Below are positions 2,638 through 11,932 of a DNA stretch of 64,000 bases, one piece after another. Origin of the DNA: the human T2T-CHM13v2.0 reference genome, Homo sapiens; the NCBI RefSeq assembly GCF_009914755.1, contig NC_060943.1; one strand, 5' to 3'. The notes below the pieces were generated by a model. The model had not been told where the DNA came from, did no database searches, and saw only the letters and a program-made list of their open reading frames with translations. The position numbers and the translations under genes were made by a program. The first letter of the stretch is position 1; every line of letters begins with the position of its first letter.

Positions 2638-5600
2638 CCGAGATGTTAATGCAGGATCTTGCTGTCCATTTCCGAGATGTTAATACGCAATCTTGCTGTC
2701 CATTTCCGAGCTGTTAATGCGGTATCTCGCTTTCTGTTTCTGAGATGTTAATACAGGCTCTTGCTGTCCATTTCCGAGATGTTAATATGGGATCTTGCTT
2801 TCTGTTTCCATTTCCAAGACGTTAATACAGGATCTTGCTGTCCATTTCCAAGATGTTAATGCGGGATCTTGCTGTCCGTTTCTGAGATGTTAATACGGGA
2901 TCTTGCTGTCCGTTTCCAAGATGTTAATGCGGGATCTTGCTTTCCGTTTCCGTTTCCGAGATGTTAATACAGGATCTTGCTTTCCGTTTCCGTTTCCGAG
3001 ATGTTAATACGGGATCTTGCTGTCCATTTCCGAGATGTTAATACAGGATCTTGCTTTCTGTTTCCATTTCCGAGGTGTGAATGTCGATCTTGCTTTCTGT
3101 TTCCAAGACATTAATATGGGATCTTGCTTTCCATTTCCATTTCCAAGATGTTAATACGGGATCTTGCTGTCCATTTCCGAGATGTGAATGCAGGATCTTG
3201 CTGTCCGTTTCTGAGATGTTAATACGGGATCTTGCTGTCCGTTTCCAAGATGTTAATGCGGGATCTTGCTTTCCGTTTCCGTTTCCAAGATGTTAATACG
3301 GGATCTTGCTGTCCATTTCCGAGATGTTAATACAGGATCTTGCTTTCTGTTTCCATTTCCGAGATGTTAATGTGGATCTTGCTATCTGTTTCCGAGACAT
3401 TAATATGGGATCTTGCTTTCCGTTTCCATTTCCAAGATGTTAATACGGGATCTTGCTGTCCATTTCCGAGATGTGAATGCAGGATCTTGCTGTCCGTTTC
3501 TGAGATGTTAATACGGGATCTTGCTGTCCGTTTCCAAGATGTTAATGCAGGATCTTGCTTTCCGTTTCCGTTTCCGAGATGTTAATATGGGATCTTGCTG
3601 TCCGTTTCCGAGATGTTAATACAGGATCTTGCTTTCTGTTTCCATTTCCGAGATGTTAATGTGGATCTTGCTTTCCATTTCCGAGATGTTAATACGGGAT
3701 CTTGCTGTCCCCGAGATGTTAATACGGGATCTTGCTGTCCCCAAGATGTTAATACGGGATCTTGCTGTCCGTTTCCGAGATGTTAATGCGGGATCTTGCT
3801 GTCCGTTTCCGAGATGTTAACGCGGGATCCTGCTTTCCGTTTCCGAGATGTTAACGCGGGATCCTGCTTTCCGTTTCCGAGATGTTAACGCGGGATCCTG
3901 CTGTCCGTTTCCGAGATGTTAACGCGGGATCCTGCTGTCCGTTTCCGAGATGTTAACGCGGGATCCTGCTGTCCGTTTCCGAGATGTTAACGCGGGATCC
4001 TGCTGTCCGTTTCCGAGATGTTAACGCGGGATCCTGCTGTCCGTTTCCGAGATGTTAACGCGGGATCCTGCTGTCCGTTTCCGAGATGTTAACGCGGGAT
4101 CCTGCTGTCCGTTTCCGAGATGTTAACGCGGGATCCTGCTGTCCGTTTCCGAGATGTTAACGCGGGATCCTGCTGTCCGTTTCCGAGATGTTAACGCGGG
4201 ATCCTGCTGTCCGTTTCCGAGATGTTAACGCGGGATCTTGCTTTCCGTTTCCGAGATGTTAACGCGGGATCTTGCTTTCCGTTTCCGAGATGTTAACGCG
4301 GGATCTTGCTGTCCGTTTCCGAGATGTTAACGCGGGATCTTGCTTTCCGTTTCCGAGATGTTAATGCGGGATCTTGCTTTCCGTTTCCGAGATGTTAATG
4401 CGGGATCTTGCTGTCCGTTTCCGCGATGTTAATGTGGGATCTTGCTGTCCGTTTCCGAGATGTTAGTGTGGATCTTGCTCTCCGTTTCCGAGATGTTAAT
4501 ATGGGATCTTGCTTTCTGTTTCCGCGATGTTAATGTGGGATCTTGCTCTCCGTTTCCCATATGTTAATACGGGATCTTGCTTTCTGTTTCCGAGATGTTA
4601 ATGCGGGATCTTGCTTTCCGTTTCTGAGATGTTAATGTGGGATCTTGCTGTCTGTTTCCGAGATGTTAATGTGGGATCTTGCTGTCCGTTTCCGAGATGT
4701 TAATTGTGGATCTTGCTTTCCGTTTCCAAGATGTTACTGCGGGATCTTGCTTTCCGTTTCCGAGATGTTAATGTGGATCTTGCTTTCTGTTTCCGAGATG
4801 GTAATACGGGATCTTGCTGTCCGTTTCCGAGGTGTTAATGTGGGATCTTGCTTTCCGTTTCCGAGATATTAATACGGGATCTTGCTGTCCATTTCCGATA
4901 TGTTAATGTGGGATTTTGCTGTCGGTTTCCAAGATGTTAATGTGGATCTTGCTTTCCATTTCCGAGATGTTAATGTGGGATCTTGCTGTCCATTTCCGAT
5001 ATGTTAATACGGGATCTTGCTTTCCGTTTCCGAGATGTTAATGCAGGATCTTGCTTTCCGTTTCCAAGATGTTAACGCGGGATCTTGCTGTCCGTTTCCG
5101 AGATGTTAATGTGGGATCTTGCTGTCCATTTCCAAGATGTTAATTGTGGATCTTGCTTTCCATTTCCGAGATGTTAATGCGGGATCTTGCTTTCCGTTTC
5201 CGAGATGTTAATGTGGATCTTGCTTTCCGTTTCCGAGATGTTAATACGGGATCTTGCTGTCCGTTTCTGAGATGTTAATGTGGGATCTTGCTGTCCATTT
5301 CCGAGATGTTAATTGTGGATCTTGCTTTCCGTTTCCGAGATGTTAATGCGGGATCTTGCTTTCCGTTTCCGAGATGTTAATGTGGATCTTGCTTTCCGTT
5401 TCCGAGATGTTAATATGGGAACTTGCTGTCCGTTTCCAAGATGTTAATGTGGGATCTTGCTGTCCGTTTCCGAGATGTTAATGTGGGATCTTGCTGTCCA
5501 TTTCCAAGATGTTAATGTGGATCTTGCTTTCCATTTCCGAGATGTTAATGCGGGATCTTGCTTTCCGTTTCCGTTTCCGAGATGTTAATATGGGATCTTG

Positions 5601-8600
5601 CTGTCCGTTTCCGAGATGTTAATGTGGATCTTGCTTTCCATTTCCCAGATGTTAATGCAGGATCTTGCTTTCCGTTTCCGTTTCCGAGATGTTAATATGG
5701 GATCTTGCTGTCCGTTTCCGAGATGTTAATACAGGATCTTGCTTTCTGTTTCCATTTCCGAGATGTTAACGCGGGATCCTGCTGTCCGTTTCCGCGATGT
5801 TAACGCGGGATCTTGCTGTCCGTTTCCGAGATGTTAACGCGGGATCTTGCTTTCCGTTTCCGAGATGTTAACGCGGGATCTTGCTTTCCGTTTCCGAGAT
5901 GTTAACGCGGGATCTTGCTATCCGTTTCCGAGATGTTAACGCGGGATCTTGCTGTCTGTTTCCGCGATGTTAATGTGAGATCTTGCTGTCCGTTTCCGAG
6001 ATGTTAATGCGGGATCTTGCTTTCCGTTTCCGAGATGTTAATGTGGGATCTTGCTGTCCATTCCCGAGATGTTAATGCGGGATCTTGCTTTCTGTTTCCA
6101 CGATGTTAATGTGGGATCTTGTTGTCCATTCCCGAGATGTTAATGCGGGATCTTGCTTTCTGTTTCCACGATGTTAATGTGGGATCTTGCTGTCTGGTTC
6201 TGAGATGTTAGTGTGGATCTTGCTCTCCGTTTCCGATATGTTAATACGGGATCTTGCTTTCTGTTTCCGCGATGTTAATGTGGGATCTTGCTGTCCGTTT
6301 CCGAGATGTTAATGCGGGATCTTGCTTTCCGTTTCCGAGATGTTAATGTGAGATCTTGCTGTCCATTTCCGAGATGTTAATGCGGAATCTTGCTTTCTGT
6401 TTCCACGATGTTAATGTGGGATCTTGCTGTCTGGTTCTGAGATGTTAGTGTGGATCTTGCTCTCCGTTTCCGATATGTTAATACGGGATCTTGCTTTCTG
6501 TTTCCGCGATGTTAATGTGGGATCTTGCTCTCCGTTTCCCATATGTTAACACGGGATCTTGCTTTCTGTTTCCGAGATGTTAATGCGGGATCTTGCTTTC
6601 CGTTTCCGAGATGTTAATGTGGGATCTTGCTGTCTGTTTCCAAGATGTTAATGTGGGATCTTGCTGTCCATTTCCGAGATGTTAATTGTGGATCTTGCTT
6701 TCCGTTTCCAAGATGTTACTGCGGGATCTTGCTTTCCGTTTCCGAGATGTTAATGTGGATCTTGCTTTCTGTTTCCGAGATGTTAATACGGGATCTTGCT
6801 GTCCGTTTCCGAGATGTTAATGTGGGATCTTGCTTTCCGTTTCCGAGATGTTAATACGGGATCTTGCTGTCCATTTCCGATATGTTAATGTGGGATTTTG
6901 CTGTCCGTTTCCGAGATGTTAATGTGGATCTTGCTTTCCATTTCCGAGATGTTAATGTGGGATCTTGCTTTCCGTTTCCGAGATGTTAATGTGGATATTG
7001 CTTTCCGTTTCCGAGATGTTAATACGGGATCTTGCTGTCCATTTCCGAGATGTTAATATGGGATCTTGCTTTCCATTTCCGAGATGTTAATGCGGGATCT
7101 TGCTGTCCATTTCCGATATGTTAATACGGGATCTTGATTTCTGTTTCCGCGATGTTAATGTGGGATCTTGCTGTCCGTTTCCAAGATGTTAATGTGGATC
7201 TTGCTCTCCGTTTCCGAGATGTTAATACGGGATCCTGCTCTCTGTTTCCGCGATTTTAATGTGGGATCTTGCTGTCCATTTCTGATATGTTAATACGGGA
7301 TCTTGCTTTCCGTTTCCGAGATGTTAATGCAGGATCTTGCTTTCCGTTTCCGAGATGTTAACGCGGAATCTTGCTGTCCGTTTCCGAGATGTTAATGTGG
7401 GATCTTGCTGTCCATTTCCAAGATGTTAATTGTGGATCTTGCTTTCCGTTTCCGAGATGTTAATGTGGACCTTGCTTTCCGTTTCCGAGATGTTAATACG
7501 GGAACTTGCTGTCCGTTTCCGAGATGTTAATGTGGGATCTTACTGTCCATTTCCGAGATGTTAATGCGGGATCTTCCTTTCCGTTTCTGAGATGTTAATG
7601 CGGGATCTTGCTTTCCGTTTCCGATATGTTAACACGGGACCTTGCTGTCCGTTTCCGAGATGTTAATACGGGATCTTGCTGTCCATTTCCGAGATGTTAA
7701 TGTGGATCTTGCTGTCCGTTTCCGAGATGTTAATGTGGATCTTGCTTTCCGTTTCCGAGATGTTAATACGGGATATTGCTGTCCGTTTCCAAGATGTTAA
7801 TGCGGGATCTTGCTTTCCGTTTCCGAGATGTTAATGCGGGATCTTCCTTTCCGTTTCCGATATGTTAATACGTGATCTTGCTTTCCGTTTCCGCGATGTT
7901 AATGTGGGATCTTGCTGTCCATTTCCGCGATGTTAATGTGGATCTTGCTGTCCGTTTCCGAGATGTTAATGTGGATCTTGCTGTCCGTTTCCGAGATGTT
8001 AATACGGGATCTTGCTTTTCGTTTCCGAGATGTTAATACGGGGTCTTGCTGTCCGTTTCCGAGATGTTAATGCGGGATCTTGCTTTCCGTTTCCGAGATG
8101 TTAATGCGGGATCTTGCTTTCCGTTTCCGAGATGTTAAGACGGGATCTTGCTGTCCGTTTCCGAAGTGTTAATGCGGGATCTTCCTTTCCGTTTCCAAGA
8201 TGTTAATGCGGGATCTTGCTTTCCATTTCCGAAATGTTAATGCGGGATCTTGCTGTCCATTTCCGATATGTTAATACGGGATCTTGCTTTCTGTTTCCGC
8301 GATGTTAATGTGGGATCTTGCTGTCCGATTCCGAGATGTTAGTGTGGATCTTGCTCTCCGTTTCCGAGATGTTAATACGGGATCTTGCTTTCTGTTTCCG
8401 CGATGTTAATGTGGGATCTTGCTGTCCGCTTCCGATATGTTAATACGGGATCTTGCTTTCTGTTTCCGAGATGTTAATGCGGCATCTTGCTTTCCGTTTC
8501 CGAGATGTTAATGCGGGATCTTGCTGTCTGTTTCCGACATGGTAATGTGGGATCTTGCTGTCCATTTCCGAGATGTTAATTGTGGATCTTGCTTTCCGTT

Positions 8601-11811: not shown

Positions 11812-11814
11812 TAG

Positions 11815-11932
11815 AAAATTGGCAACTTCTCCATCGTGCGGCGGCTTGGCGTGCAGGAGTGCATTCTCCTGGTTACACAACGCATAACCAAATACCCAGT
11901 GCTGGTGGAGCGCATCATCCAGAACACGGAAG
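11815..11932 (+). CDS. ARHGEF18: ARHGEF18 internal exon (C-terminal part of DH domain: [39 protein letters not shown])
   Basis: tag|AAA acceptor, G|gtaggc donor; QRITKYP DH-domain motif; phase matches next exon. Confidence 0.95.

What the first reader, a model, noticed from the sequence alone, without database searches (positions are those of the whole stretch)
2638..11816. A 9-kb minisatellite built from ~270 copies of the exon's own 3' splice site
Seen: the last repeat unit is the functional acceptor of the exon at 11815. It has TTAAT (yUnAy branch point, A at 11787 = -28), pyrimidine tract TCTTGCTTTCTGTTTCC and TAG. Upstream units keep essentially the same geometry but end mostly in GAG, sometimes AAG, or have lost the AG. 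Established: G at -3 is strongly disfavoured by U2AF35, while branch point and pyrimidine tract still recruit SF1/U2AF65. Inference: each pre-mRNA carries hundreds of decoy acceptors ahead of the real one, which could act as a U2AF/SF1 sponge, cause intron detention, or tune splicing by copy number in a DH-domain exon of ARHGEF18 (a gene linked to recessive retinal dystrophy). Because 34 is not a multiple of 3 and units carry TAA, using an upstream unit should usually frameshift or truncate and trigger NMD.
Basis: partly seen in the sequence, partly recalled or inferred. Interest (0 to 1): 0.88.

Follow-up and report, generated by a model that had tools for sequence, protein, structure and literature searches.

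The report
Intronic minisatellite ending in exon's acceptor
A 9-kb tandem repeat in an ARHGEF18 intron is made of 269 copies of the 34 bases just before a coding exon; only the last copy has a good splice acceptor, so the array looks like a tolerated repeat that may vary in length, not a proven splicing regulator.

Summary
TRF finds one array at 2638-11815 (period 34, 269.2 copies, 86% match). Its last unit ends in the TAG that precedes the RefSeq exon start at 11815. Of 268 internal unit ends, 188 are GAG, 32 AAG, 1 CAG and 47 have no AG (less the left edge's AAG). 211 of 268 internal units keep both a yUnAy motif and a terminal AG. All 222 AG junctions (left edge included), if used, would frameshift or hit a stop.

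On a home-made acceptor matrix, nearly all of the gap between real site and typical unit lies at -3. The array is 1.6-fold denser than ordinary introns in weak pseudo-acceptors but about 9-fold poorer in good ones. Donor-like sites are weak. All 17 RefSeq transcripts use the last unit. A factor "sponge" acting in trans is quantitatively unlikely; effects in cis are untested.

A published mirror image exists: the ABCA7 intron-18 VNTR contains exon 18's donor. I found no paper describing the ARHGEF18 array. Best reading: a locus-specific, CpG-rich minisatellite that is tolerated.

The parts
2638..11814 (+). 34-bp minisatellite of 269 units. It makes up 9,177 of the 12,137 bases (76%) of the ARHGEF18 intron chr19:7439678-7451814.
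   Evidence: TRF. Unit parsing. Intron limits. No copies elsewhere in the genome.
11781..11814 (+). Last unit, which is the functional 3' splice site: yUnAy TTAAT at 11784-11788, pyrimidine tract at 11795-11811, TAG at 11812-11814.
   Evidence: Sequence. All 17 RefSeq transcripts use it. Matrix score 8.08, the 27th percentile of 295 real sites. The nearest upstream AG ends at 11792, 22 nt before the acceptor G.
11815..11932 (+). Coding exon of 118 nt in phase 0, encoding part of the DH (RhoGEF) domain. Its donor is AAG|GTAGGC.
   Evidence: Annotation. Translation and donor score (42nd percentile). Pfam PF00621, E 2.9e-05.
2643..3715 (+). Distal, most diverged part of the array. It holds many of the 40-nt units (extra CCGTTT or CCATTT) and has the lowest CpG count per unit (1.6-1.7).
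   Evidence: 4.9-5.5 mean edits to the consensus, against 2.1-3.7 elsewhere. Sequence.
3814..4459 (+). Run of about 19 near-identical, CpG-rich units, most with GGATCC. It looks like a recent local expansion.
   Evidence: an 18-unit run at offset 1 with 1.6% divergence and 3.67 CpG per unit; the commonest such unit occurs 10 times.
5616..5648 (+). The only internal unit ending in CAG, and the strongest pseudo-acceptor in the array.
   Evidence: score 11.60, the 70th percentile of real sites, above the real acceptor; the nearest fair donor-like site is AAT|GTGAGA at 5975.
2769..3319 (.). RefSeq functional element 'OCT4-NANOG-H3K27ac hESC enhancer', wholly inside the array.
11471..12013 (.). Second RefSeq 'OCT4-NANOG-H3K27ac hESC enhancer'. 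It covers the last 10 units, the exon and 81 bases beyond.

Best explanation
This is a locus-specific, CpG-rich intronic minisatellite. It grew by tandem duplication of the 34 bases that end at the acceptor of a DH-domain exon of ARHGEF18.

Shown: the exon-proximal unit carries the only TAG and is the acceptor of every annotated transcript. Internal units keep the branch-point-like motif and an average pyrimidine tract. Almost all end in GAG, AAG or no AG, and they have no good donor downstream.

Inferred: the spliceosome ignores the internal units by ordinary exon definition and AG choice, and the whole array leaves with a 12.1-kb intron. The internal GAG may come from the CCGAG at the left edge, which forms an imperfect 5-base direct repeat with the acceptor's CCTAG and could have seeded the first slippage. 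The array then evolved by unequal exchange and CpG decay. Its main effects would be a fourfold longer intron, probably length variation between people, and at most a trickle of NMD-bound mis-splicing. Any regulatory effect would act in cis and be modest.
For: Array and its register with the exon.

All 17 ARHGEF18 transcripts join chr19:7439677 to 7451815, and none has an exon in the intron.

Score gap between the real site and a typical unit is 8.08 against 3.34 bits, of which 4.72 bits lie at -3. Real sites in the sample: CAG 255, TAG 32, AAG 8, GAG 1 of 296.

Only 2 of 260 array AGs score above the 25th percentile of real sites (7.94); both also exceed the real acceptor's 8.08. Good pseudo-acceptors are about 9-fold rarer than in other introns.

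Of the 15 junctions within 510 nt of the exon, 14 end in GAG and one in ACG, which has no AG; all score at or below the 9th percentile.

Only 2 of 726 GTs in the array exceed the 25th percentile of real donors.

Minisatellite dynamics: variable positions are mostly CpG sites. The array holds 559 CpGs with observed/expected 1.23. Edges are more diverged, one homogeneous block looks young, and blocks are duplicated at offsets of 58, 86 and 153 units with about 2% divergence.

No copy elsewhere: 211 pattern hits in the genome equal the 211 in the window, and BLAST hits only the array itself.

No Rfam family. No ORF over 81 aa lies inside the array.

Precedent: in ABCA7 the exon-proximal unit is the canonical donor. 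The second unit's cryptic donor is also used, as a minor, NMD-sensitive isoform whose level does not depend on array length, even though I count 69 donor-like sites about as strong as the canonical one.
Against: Units are not dead as protein-binding sites. 185 of 269 pyrimidine tracts score above the median of real sites. Such tracts are 3.3-fold denser than in other introns, and TTAAT is about 50-fold denser. So U2AF65 or SF1 loading in cis stays plausible.

In the ABCA7 precedent, array length does change exon skipping and expression.

RefSeq marks both edges of the array as hESC enhancers.

The high CpG content could reflect protection from methylation.

I had no RNA, CLIP, population or cross-species data. 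The matrices are home-made from 295 acceptors and 283 donors on GC-rich chr19, and the -3 G weight rests on one site plus a pseudocount.
Confidence: 0.6

Rival explanations
1. The 211 units with a branch-point-like motif, tract and AG load SF1, U2AF or U2 as they are transcribed. They compete with the real acceptor. This slows or detains the intron, or promotes skipping of the 118-nt exon, in proportion to copy number.
For: Mid-quality tracts are 3.3-fold denser and TTAAT about 50-fold denser than in other introns. The real acceptor is only at the 27th percentile and the upstream donor AAG|GTAAAA at the 23rd. The decoy-exon model shows that unproductive sites bound by U2AF can cause intron retention (abstract). 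ABCA7 VNTR length raises skipping of the neighbouring exon and lowers expression (passages).
Against: The decoy model needs both splice sites, and donors here are weak. Full-site scores of the units sit near the 5th percentile of real sites (GAG) or the 15th (AAG). No annotated isoform shows it. A paper reports an 'ARHGEF18-IR' event, but the intron is named only in a closed supplement. It was assayed by gel RT-PCR, which suggests to me a short intron. A trans 'sponge' is implausible: the array equals about 15-30 kb of ordinary intron.
Confidence: 0.17
2. The array matters as DNA. It would be a multi-copy transcription-factor or methylation platform, an enhancer or silencer in the gene body, whose strength scales with copy number.
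For: RefSeq lists 'OCT4-NANOG-H3K27ac hESC enhancer' at 2769-3319 and 11471-12013. The paper I take as their source, from recall and the match of labels, says satellite repeats and LTRs were the elements most enriched in active ChIP-STARR-seq enhancers (passages). The array holds 559 CpGs with observed/expected 1.23. The ABCA7 authors also proposed transcription-factor binding to their VNTR.
Against: Multi-copy sequence piles reads onto a collapsed reference, so a reporter call on a repeat can be an artefact; this is my inference. Only the edges are annotated. I ran no motif test. CpG-to-TpG/CpA variants at all three CpG sites suggest germline methylation, not a protected island.
Confidence: 0.12
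3. The internal units pair with each other as RNA through a self-complementary 12-nt core. This would hide their tracts and loop out the array, a structural aid to splicing like that proposed for the hTERT intron-6 repeats.
For: GCGGGAUCUUGC forms a 12-bp self-duplex of -16.6 kcal/mol, and the GGAUCC variant one of -22.2. The last 240 nt fold with z = -3.36. The homogeneous block folds with z = -8.1 against mononucleotide shuffles.
Against: A mid-array stretch folds no better than dinucleotide shuffles: z = -0.79, with 42 of 200 shuffles as good. The core is eroded by CpG decay in many units. There is no covariation test and no outgroup.
Confidence: 0.06

Closest known systems
ABCA7 intron-18 VNTR (De Roeck et al. 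2018, PMC5954066; passages read)
   Same: It is a minisatellite on chr19p that directly flanks a coding exon, and its exon-proximal unit supplies the canonical splice site. The paper says the first two bases of the VNTR are exon 18's donor. In CHM13 I see a 25-bp unit in 88.6 copies starting 4 bases inside the exon. Use of the next unit gives an out-of-frame, NMD-sensitive transcript.
   Different: It sits on the donor side, not the acceptor side. Its internal units are not spoiled: 69 GT sites score about as high as the canonical donor or higher. In ARHGEF18, 0 of 268 internal units keep TAG and only 1 has CAG. ABCA7 has measured length variation, splicing, expression and disease effects; ARHGEF18 has none that I could find.
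hTERT intron-6 38-nt VNTR ('block 6' repeats; review PMC8150890, passages)
   Same: It is an intronic minisatellite of similar unit length that varies in copy number between people.
   Different: The review says it is required for skipping of exons 7-8. It does not abut an exon and is not made of splice-site copies. It has about 26 copies, not 269.
Decoy exons causing intron retention (Parra et al. 2018, PMC6097662, abstract; 2020 follow-up seen in search listing)
   Same: Unproductive splice sites inside a large intron are proposed to engage the terminal sites, with U2AF bound at poorly used acceptors.
   Different: Decoy exons are single, highly conserved cassettes with both an acceptor and a donor. 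Here there are hundreds of acceptor-like units with weak donors. Conservation and binding are unknown.
CFTR intron 8 (TG)m(T)n tract at the exon 9 acceptor (recalled, no call)
   Same: A length-variable tandem repeat forms part of an acceptor and tunes exon inclusion.
   Different: It is a microsatellite inside a single acceptor. It is not a stack of whole acceptor copies.

Membership tests
Minisatellite / VNTR | Head-to-tail copies of a 10-100-bp unit | tested here: met
   Period 34, 269.2 copies, 86% match; 269 parsed units.
Minisatellite / VNTR | Single locus, not a dispersed element | tested here: met
   211 pattern hits in the genome, all on the + strand, equal the 211 in the window. BLAST of 341 bases hits only chr19:7442638-7451800. 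Closed regions are not shown, so this is not absolute.
Minisatellite / VNTR | Copy number varies between people | not testable with these tools
   No other assemblies or reads are available. The young homogeneous block and block duplications make variation likely.
Exon-flanking VNTR that contains the splice site (ABCA7 type) | The array abuts the exon and its terminal unit is the canonical splice site | tested here: met
   The array ends at 11814/11815 and the exon starts at 11815. 17 of 17 transcripts use it. In my 264-kb sample only 1 of 296 acceptors lies at such an array.
Exon-flanking VNTR that contains the splice site (ABCA7 type) | Internal units keep a usable copy of the site | tested here: inconclusive
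   221 of 268 internal units keep an AG, but as GAG 188, AAG 32 and CAG 1 (less the left edge's AAG). Mean scores sit at the 5th and 15th percentile of real sites.
Exon-flanking VNTR that contains the splice site (ABCA7 type) | Cryptic use of a neighbouring unit, and length-dependent splicing or expression | not testable with these tools
   No RNA data. RefSeq shows no such isoform.
Decoy exon | Cryptic cassette with both an acceptor and a donor | tested here: not met
   Only 2 of 726 GTs exceed the 25th percentile of real donors, and only 2 of 260 AGs exceed that of real acceptors. One candidate pair exists, 5649-5974.
Decoy exon | High conservation, U2AF binding, and a retained host intron | not testable with these tools
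   No outgroup genomes or CLIP data. The published ARHGEF18-IR event names its intron only in a closed supplement.
Enhancer (reporter-defined) | Listed as a functional element | tested here: met
   Two RefSeq hESC enhancer features lie at the array's edges.
Enhancer (reporter-defined) | Activity per copy above background, not a mapping pile-up | not testable with these tools
   No reporter or ChIP data are available here.

The most novel reading that the evidence does not exclude
Array length sets ARHGEF18 dosage in cis. Long alleles would load enough SF1, U2AF or other tract binders on the nascent intron to slow use of the modest real acceptor. That would raise skipping of the out-of-frame 118-nt DH exon or detention of the intron. 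Very long alleles would then act as hidden hypomorphs in a recessive retinal-degeneration gene, the acceptor-side twin of the ABCA7 expansion.
Probability: 0.12. Interest if true: 0.75.

Novelty: new member of a known kind. Interest (0 to 1): 0.4.

Why it matters
The exon encodes part of the catalytic DH domain and is 118 nt long, so losing it or extending it breaks the reading frame. Its only annotated acceptor is the end of a repeat that probably changes length. Short-read pipelines and collapsed references handle such an array poorly. Variants that turn a GAG unit into a YAG unit, or large length changes, would therefore go unseen in people with unsolved ARHGEF18-type retinal disease. The ABCA7 case shows that a repeat built on a splice site can matter for disease. 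The locus is also a natural test bed for how the spliceosome picks one site among hundreds of near-copies. If nothing depends on length, it is simply a clear example of how much pseudo-site load an intron tolerates.

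Tried and rejected
Origin from the exon. By eye the left flank seemed to hold a decayed copy of the exon start, and the unit seemed to resemble exon sequence. Local alignments against shuffles rejected this: left flank against exon, 35% of shuffles scored as well; unit dimer against exon, 96%; against left flank, 93%; against the downstream intron, 88%.

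Dispersed element. No copies occur elsewhere in the genome.

Known RNA or coding. No Rfam family reaches its gathering score in 1-14500. ORFs wholly inside the array reach at most 81 aa.

Selection against usable AGs. Unit positions 33 and 34 (the AG) vary more (9.5% and 12.9%) than most non-CpG positions. But GAT and GCG units look like a few events spread by duplication, so I draw no conclusion. Transversions at -3 (2 C, plus 1 T which is the real acceptor) are no rarer than at the other CpG guanines (position 26: 1 C; position 11: 7 T). The absence of AAG or YAG junctions in the 22 units nearest the exon has P = 0.051 under a simple model, which is not significant.

RNA structure. Results are mixed: z = -3.36 and z = -0.79.

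Age, rough only. From I counted by hand 82 minor bases over 23 non-CpG positions in 210 units, or 1.7%. With a recalled neutral rate this suggests unit diversity tens of millions of years old. Repeat turnover makes this unreliable.

GRCh37 length. The two RefSeq enhancer features (551 and 543 bases, 8,151 bases apart) would be adjacent tiles if the older reference held only about 1 kb of array. This is a guess that I could not check.

Literature. 'ARHGEF18' with 'VNTR' gave 0 papers. With 'tandem repeat' it gave 7, none about this array by title or abstract; the one I opened mentions the gene only in a list. With 'minisatellite' it gave 1, by its title an unrelated review. A 17-base unit string gave 0. 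'VNTR' with 'splice acceptor', 'polypyrimidine tract' and 'intron' gave 11, none describing an acceptor-built array by title or abstract. Supplements are closed, so VNTR catalogues may list this locus without my seeing it.

Not done: MaxEntScan and SpliceAI are not available; no transcription-factor motif library was at hand; no outgroup genomes were available.

Full report
WHAT IS THERE. Tandem Repeats Finder reports a single array at window 2638-11815: period 34, 269.2 copies, 86% matches, 2% indels, score 12362. I anchored units on a 9-base motif. That gave 272 anchors, 3 of them spurious splits, leaving 269 units. Their lengths are 34 nt (210), 33 (44), 40 (13) and 30 (2), with 152 distinct sequences. 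The array is 9,177 of the 12,137 bases of the intron between chr19:7439677 and 7451815. The last unit runs straight into the RefSeq exon at 11815. It has TTAAT at 11784-11788, the pyrimidine tract at 11795-11811 and TAG at 11812-11814.

UNIT ENDS. There are 270 junctions, counting the left edge and the real acceptor. 188 end in GAG, 33 in AAG, 1 in CAG, 1 in TAG (the real one), and 47 have no AG. A yUnAy motif at unit positions 4-8 is present in 256 of 269 units. 211 of 268 internal units have both that motif and a terminal AG. The exon is in phase 0. If any of the 222 AG-bearing decoy junctions were used, 75 would insert an in-frame stretch with a stop, 146 would shift the frame and meet a stop, and 1 (the last GAG) would shift the frame only. 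The exon matches Pfam RhoGEF at E 2.9e-05. An abstract in a search listing states the link of biallelic ARHGEF18 mutations to retinal degeneration.

HOW GOOD ARE THE DECOYS. MaxEntScan and SpliceAI are not available, so I built log-odds matrices. The training set was curated RefSeq sites in the window plus 200 kb of chr19: 295 acceptors over -20..+3, with the site under study left out, and 283 donors.

- Real acceptors in the sample are CAG 255, TAG 32, AAG 8 and GAG 1 of 296.
- The real ARHGEF18 acceptor scores 8.08, the 27th percentile.
- GAG units average 3.64 (about the 5th percentile) and AAG units 6.21 (15th). The single CAG unit ending at 5648 scores 11.60 (70th).
- Of the 4.74-bit gap between the real site and a typical unit, 4.72 bits lie at -3.
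- The tracts themselves are average. The mean unit tract score sits at the 55th percentile of real sites, and 185 of 269 exceed the real median.

IS THE LOAD UNUSUAL. I compared the array with 139 kb of sense-strand intron from the same sample.

- AGs above the 5th percentile of real sites: 13.4 per kb in the array against 8.4 per kb (1.6-fold).
- AGs above the 25th percentile: 0.22 against 1.91 per kb. Above 10 bits: 0.11 against 0.81 per kb.
- Tracts scored alone, above the real median: 22.3 against 6.9 per kb (3.3-fold). Top-quartile tracts: 0.6-fold. TTAAT: 24.6 against 0.5 per kb.

The array is therefore a local concentration of mid-quality branch-point-plus-tract modules. As a store of binding sites it equals roughly 15-30 kb of ordinary intron. 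That makes a sponge acting in trans implausible and leaves only cis effects open.

EXON DEFINITION. Donor-like sites in the array are poor. The best are two AAT|GTGAGA sites (33rd percentile) at 5975 and 6348. There are also 43 AAT|GTGGGA sites at about the 10th percentile, created by CpG decay. Of the 15 junctions within 510 nt of the exon, 14 end in GAG and one in ACG, which has no AG; all score at or below the 9th percentile. All 17 RefSeq ARHGEF18 transcripts join 7439677 to 7451815, and none has an exon in the intron. The flanking donors are ordinary: upstream AAG|GTAAAA at the 23rd percentile, downstream AAG|GTAGGC at the 42nd.

ORIGIN AND DYNAMICS. The unit occurs nowhere else. A 341-base query hits only chr19:7442638-7451800. 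A degenerate 32-base pattern with up to 2 mismatches has 211 forward and 0 reverse hits in the genome and the same 211 in the window. Matches in closed regions are not shown.

- The most variable unit positions are the three CpG sites and their neighbours, plus a G/T site in the tract (position 22) and the terminal AG.
- The array holds 559 CpGs, observed/expected 1.23, with 44.8% G+C.
- The left 1 kb is the most diverged.
- A run of about 19 near-identical CpG-rich units lies at 3814-4459.
- Blocks of 8-15 units recur at offsets of 58, 86 and 153 units with about 2% divergence.

These are the usual marks of unequal exchange in a minisatellite. The array begins with CCGAG and ends with CCTAG. 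I infer that this imperfect direct repeat around one ancestral 34-base segment seeded the first duplication, and that internal junctions inherited the left copy's G. No outgroup genome was available to test this. I also tested the idea that the unit or the left flank derives from exon sequence, and rejected it.

OTHER READINGS. RefSeq places 'OCT4-NANOG-H3K27ac hESC enhancer' features at 2769-3319 and 11471-12013, the two edges of the array. I take their source, from recall and the match of labels, to be the ChIP-STARR-seq paper PMC6084406. It reports that satellite repeats and LTRs were the elements most enriched among active enhancers (passages). Multi-copy pile-up on a collapsed reference could produce such calls, so I hold this as a rival and not a result.

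Each unit also carries a self-complementary 12-base RNA core, with a self-duplex of -16.6 kcal/mol. But fold z-scores are mixed: -3.36 for the last 240 nt and -0.79 mid-array. No Rfam family matches, and no ORF over 81 aa lies inside the array.

WHAT IS KNOWN. Running TRF over my 264-kb sample, only 1 of 296 acceptors lies at a minisatellite with period at least 10 and at least 3 copies: this one. By chance the same sample contains the ABCA7 intron-18 VNTR. In CHM13 it has a 25-bp unit in 88.6 copies and starts 4 bases inside exon 18, so the exon's donor CCT|GTGAGC is the first unit. De Roeck et al. [quoted passage not shown] They report:

- use of the next unit's donor (a 25-base retention, out of frame, increased when NMD is blocked), not dependent on length;
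- exon 19 skipping that rises with length;
- expression that falls with length;
- Alzheimer's disease risk.

In CHM13, 69 GT sites in that array score about as high as the canonical donor or higher. So the ABCA7 decoys are intact, whereas the ARHGEF18 decoys are spoiled. The ARHGEF18 array is thus the acceptor-side counterpart of a published kind. Other relatives are the hTERT intron-6 38-nt repeats (review passages) and decoy exons (abstract). Membership in the decoy-exon family fails on the donor requirement.

I found no paper describing the ARHGEF18 array. Supplements, where VNTR catalogues live, were closed. A paper on tuberculosis reports an 'ARHGEF18-IR' event but names the intron only in a closed supplement.

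VERDICT. The sponge version is unlikely on numbers. My best explanation, at confidence 0.6, is a tolerated and probably length-variable intronic minisatellite whose exon-proximal unit is the working acceptor. Cis tuning by length remains the most interesting reading that the evidence does not exclude, at about 0.12-0.17. It is worth testing because of the ABCA7 precedent and the gene's role in retinal disease.

LIMITS. The matrices are home-made from GC-rich chr19 and have no branch-point term. The -3 G weight rests on one site. I had no RNA, CLIP, methylation, population or outgroup data.

Noticed in passing
window 14407-15228: A second minisatellite lies in the next ARHGEF18 intron. TRF calls a 20-bp unit in about 42 copies, and also periods of 39 and 59. 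It starts 25-27 bases after the donor of exon 14133-14381.
   Followed up: partly
L005, chr19:1012102-1014368: The ABCA7 intron-18 VNTR in CHM13 has a 25-bp unit in 88.6 copies and starts 4 bases inside exon 18. 69 GT sites score about as high as the canonical donor CCT|GTGAGC or higher.
   Followed up: yes
window 5616-5648 and 5975: One unit ends in CCCAG and outscores the real acceptor (11.60 against 8.08). The nearest fair donor-like site, AAT|GTGAGA, would close a 326-nt pseudo-exon at 5649-5974. RefSeq has no transcript for it.
   Followed up: partly
window 2769-3319 and 11471-12013: RefSeq 'OCT4-NANOG-H3K27ac hESC enhancer' features sit at the two edges of the array, 8,151 bases apart. 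They might be adjacent tiles on an older reference with a much shorter array. I could not check this.
   Followed up: partly
window 2638-11815: The 9-kb array is absent from the list of soft-masked repeats of 100 bases or more for this chromosome, although flanking Alu-like stretches are masked.
   Followed up: no
window 3814-4459: A run of about 19 near-identical units has about 3.7 CpGs per unit, most with GGATCC. Its RNA folds far better than mononucleotide shuffles, z = -8.1.
   Followed up: partly
unit positions 9-20 throughout the array: A self-complementary 12-base core (GCGGGATCTTGC in 48 of 210 34-nt units) lets any two units pair as RNA, at -16.6 kcal/mol.
   Followed up: partly
L016 chr19:44712822-44713483; L012 chr19:10101733-10102648; L018 chr19:61637403-61640574: Other chr19 minisatellites turned up. 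An ARHGEF1 38-bp repeat starts 27 bases after an exon. A COL5A3 70-bp repeat lies 99 bases from an exon. A 39-bp repeat of 81.9 copies has no curated exon within 300 bases.
   Followed up: no
literature, PMC13043262: An 'ARHGEF18-IR' intron-retention event is reported as a marker of tuberculosis progression. The intron is named only in a closed supplement.
   Followed up: partly
window 11035: The junction CCAAG|GTGTTA places an acceptor-like AG directly before a GT, which resembles a recursive splice site. Both scores are weak: acceptor 6.82, donor 3.55. The array contains 8 AGGT in total.
   Followed up: no
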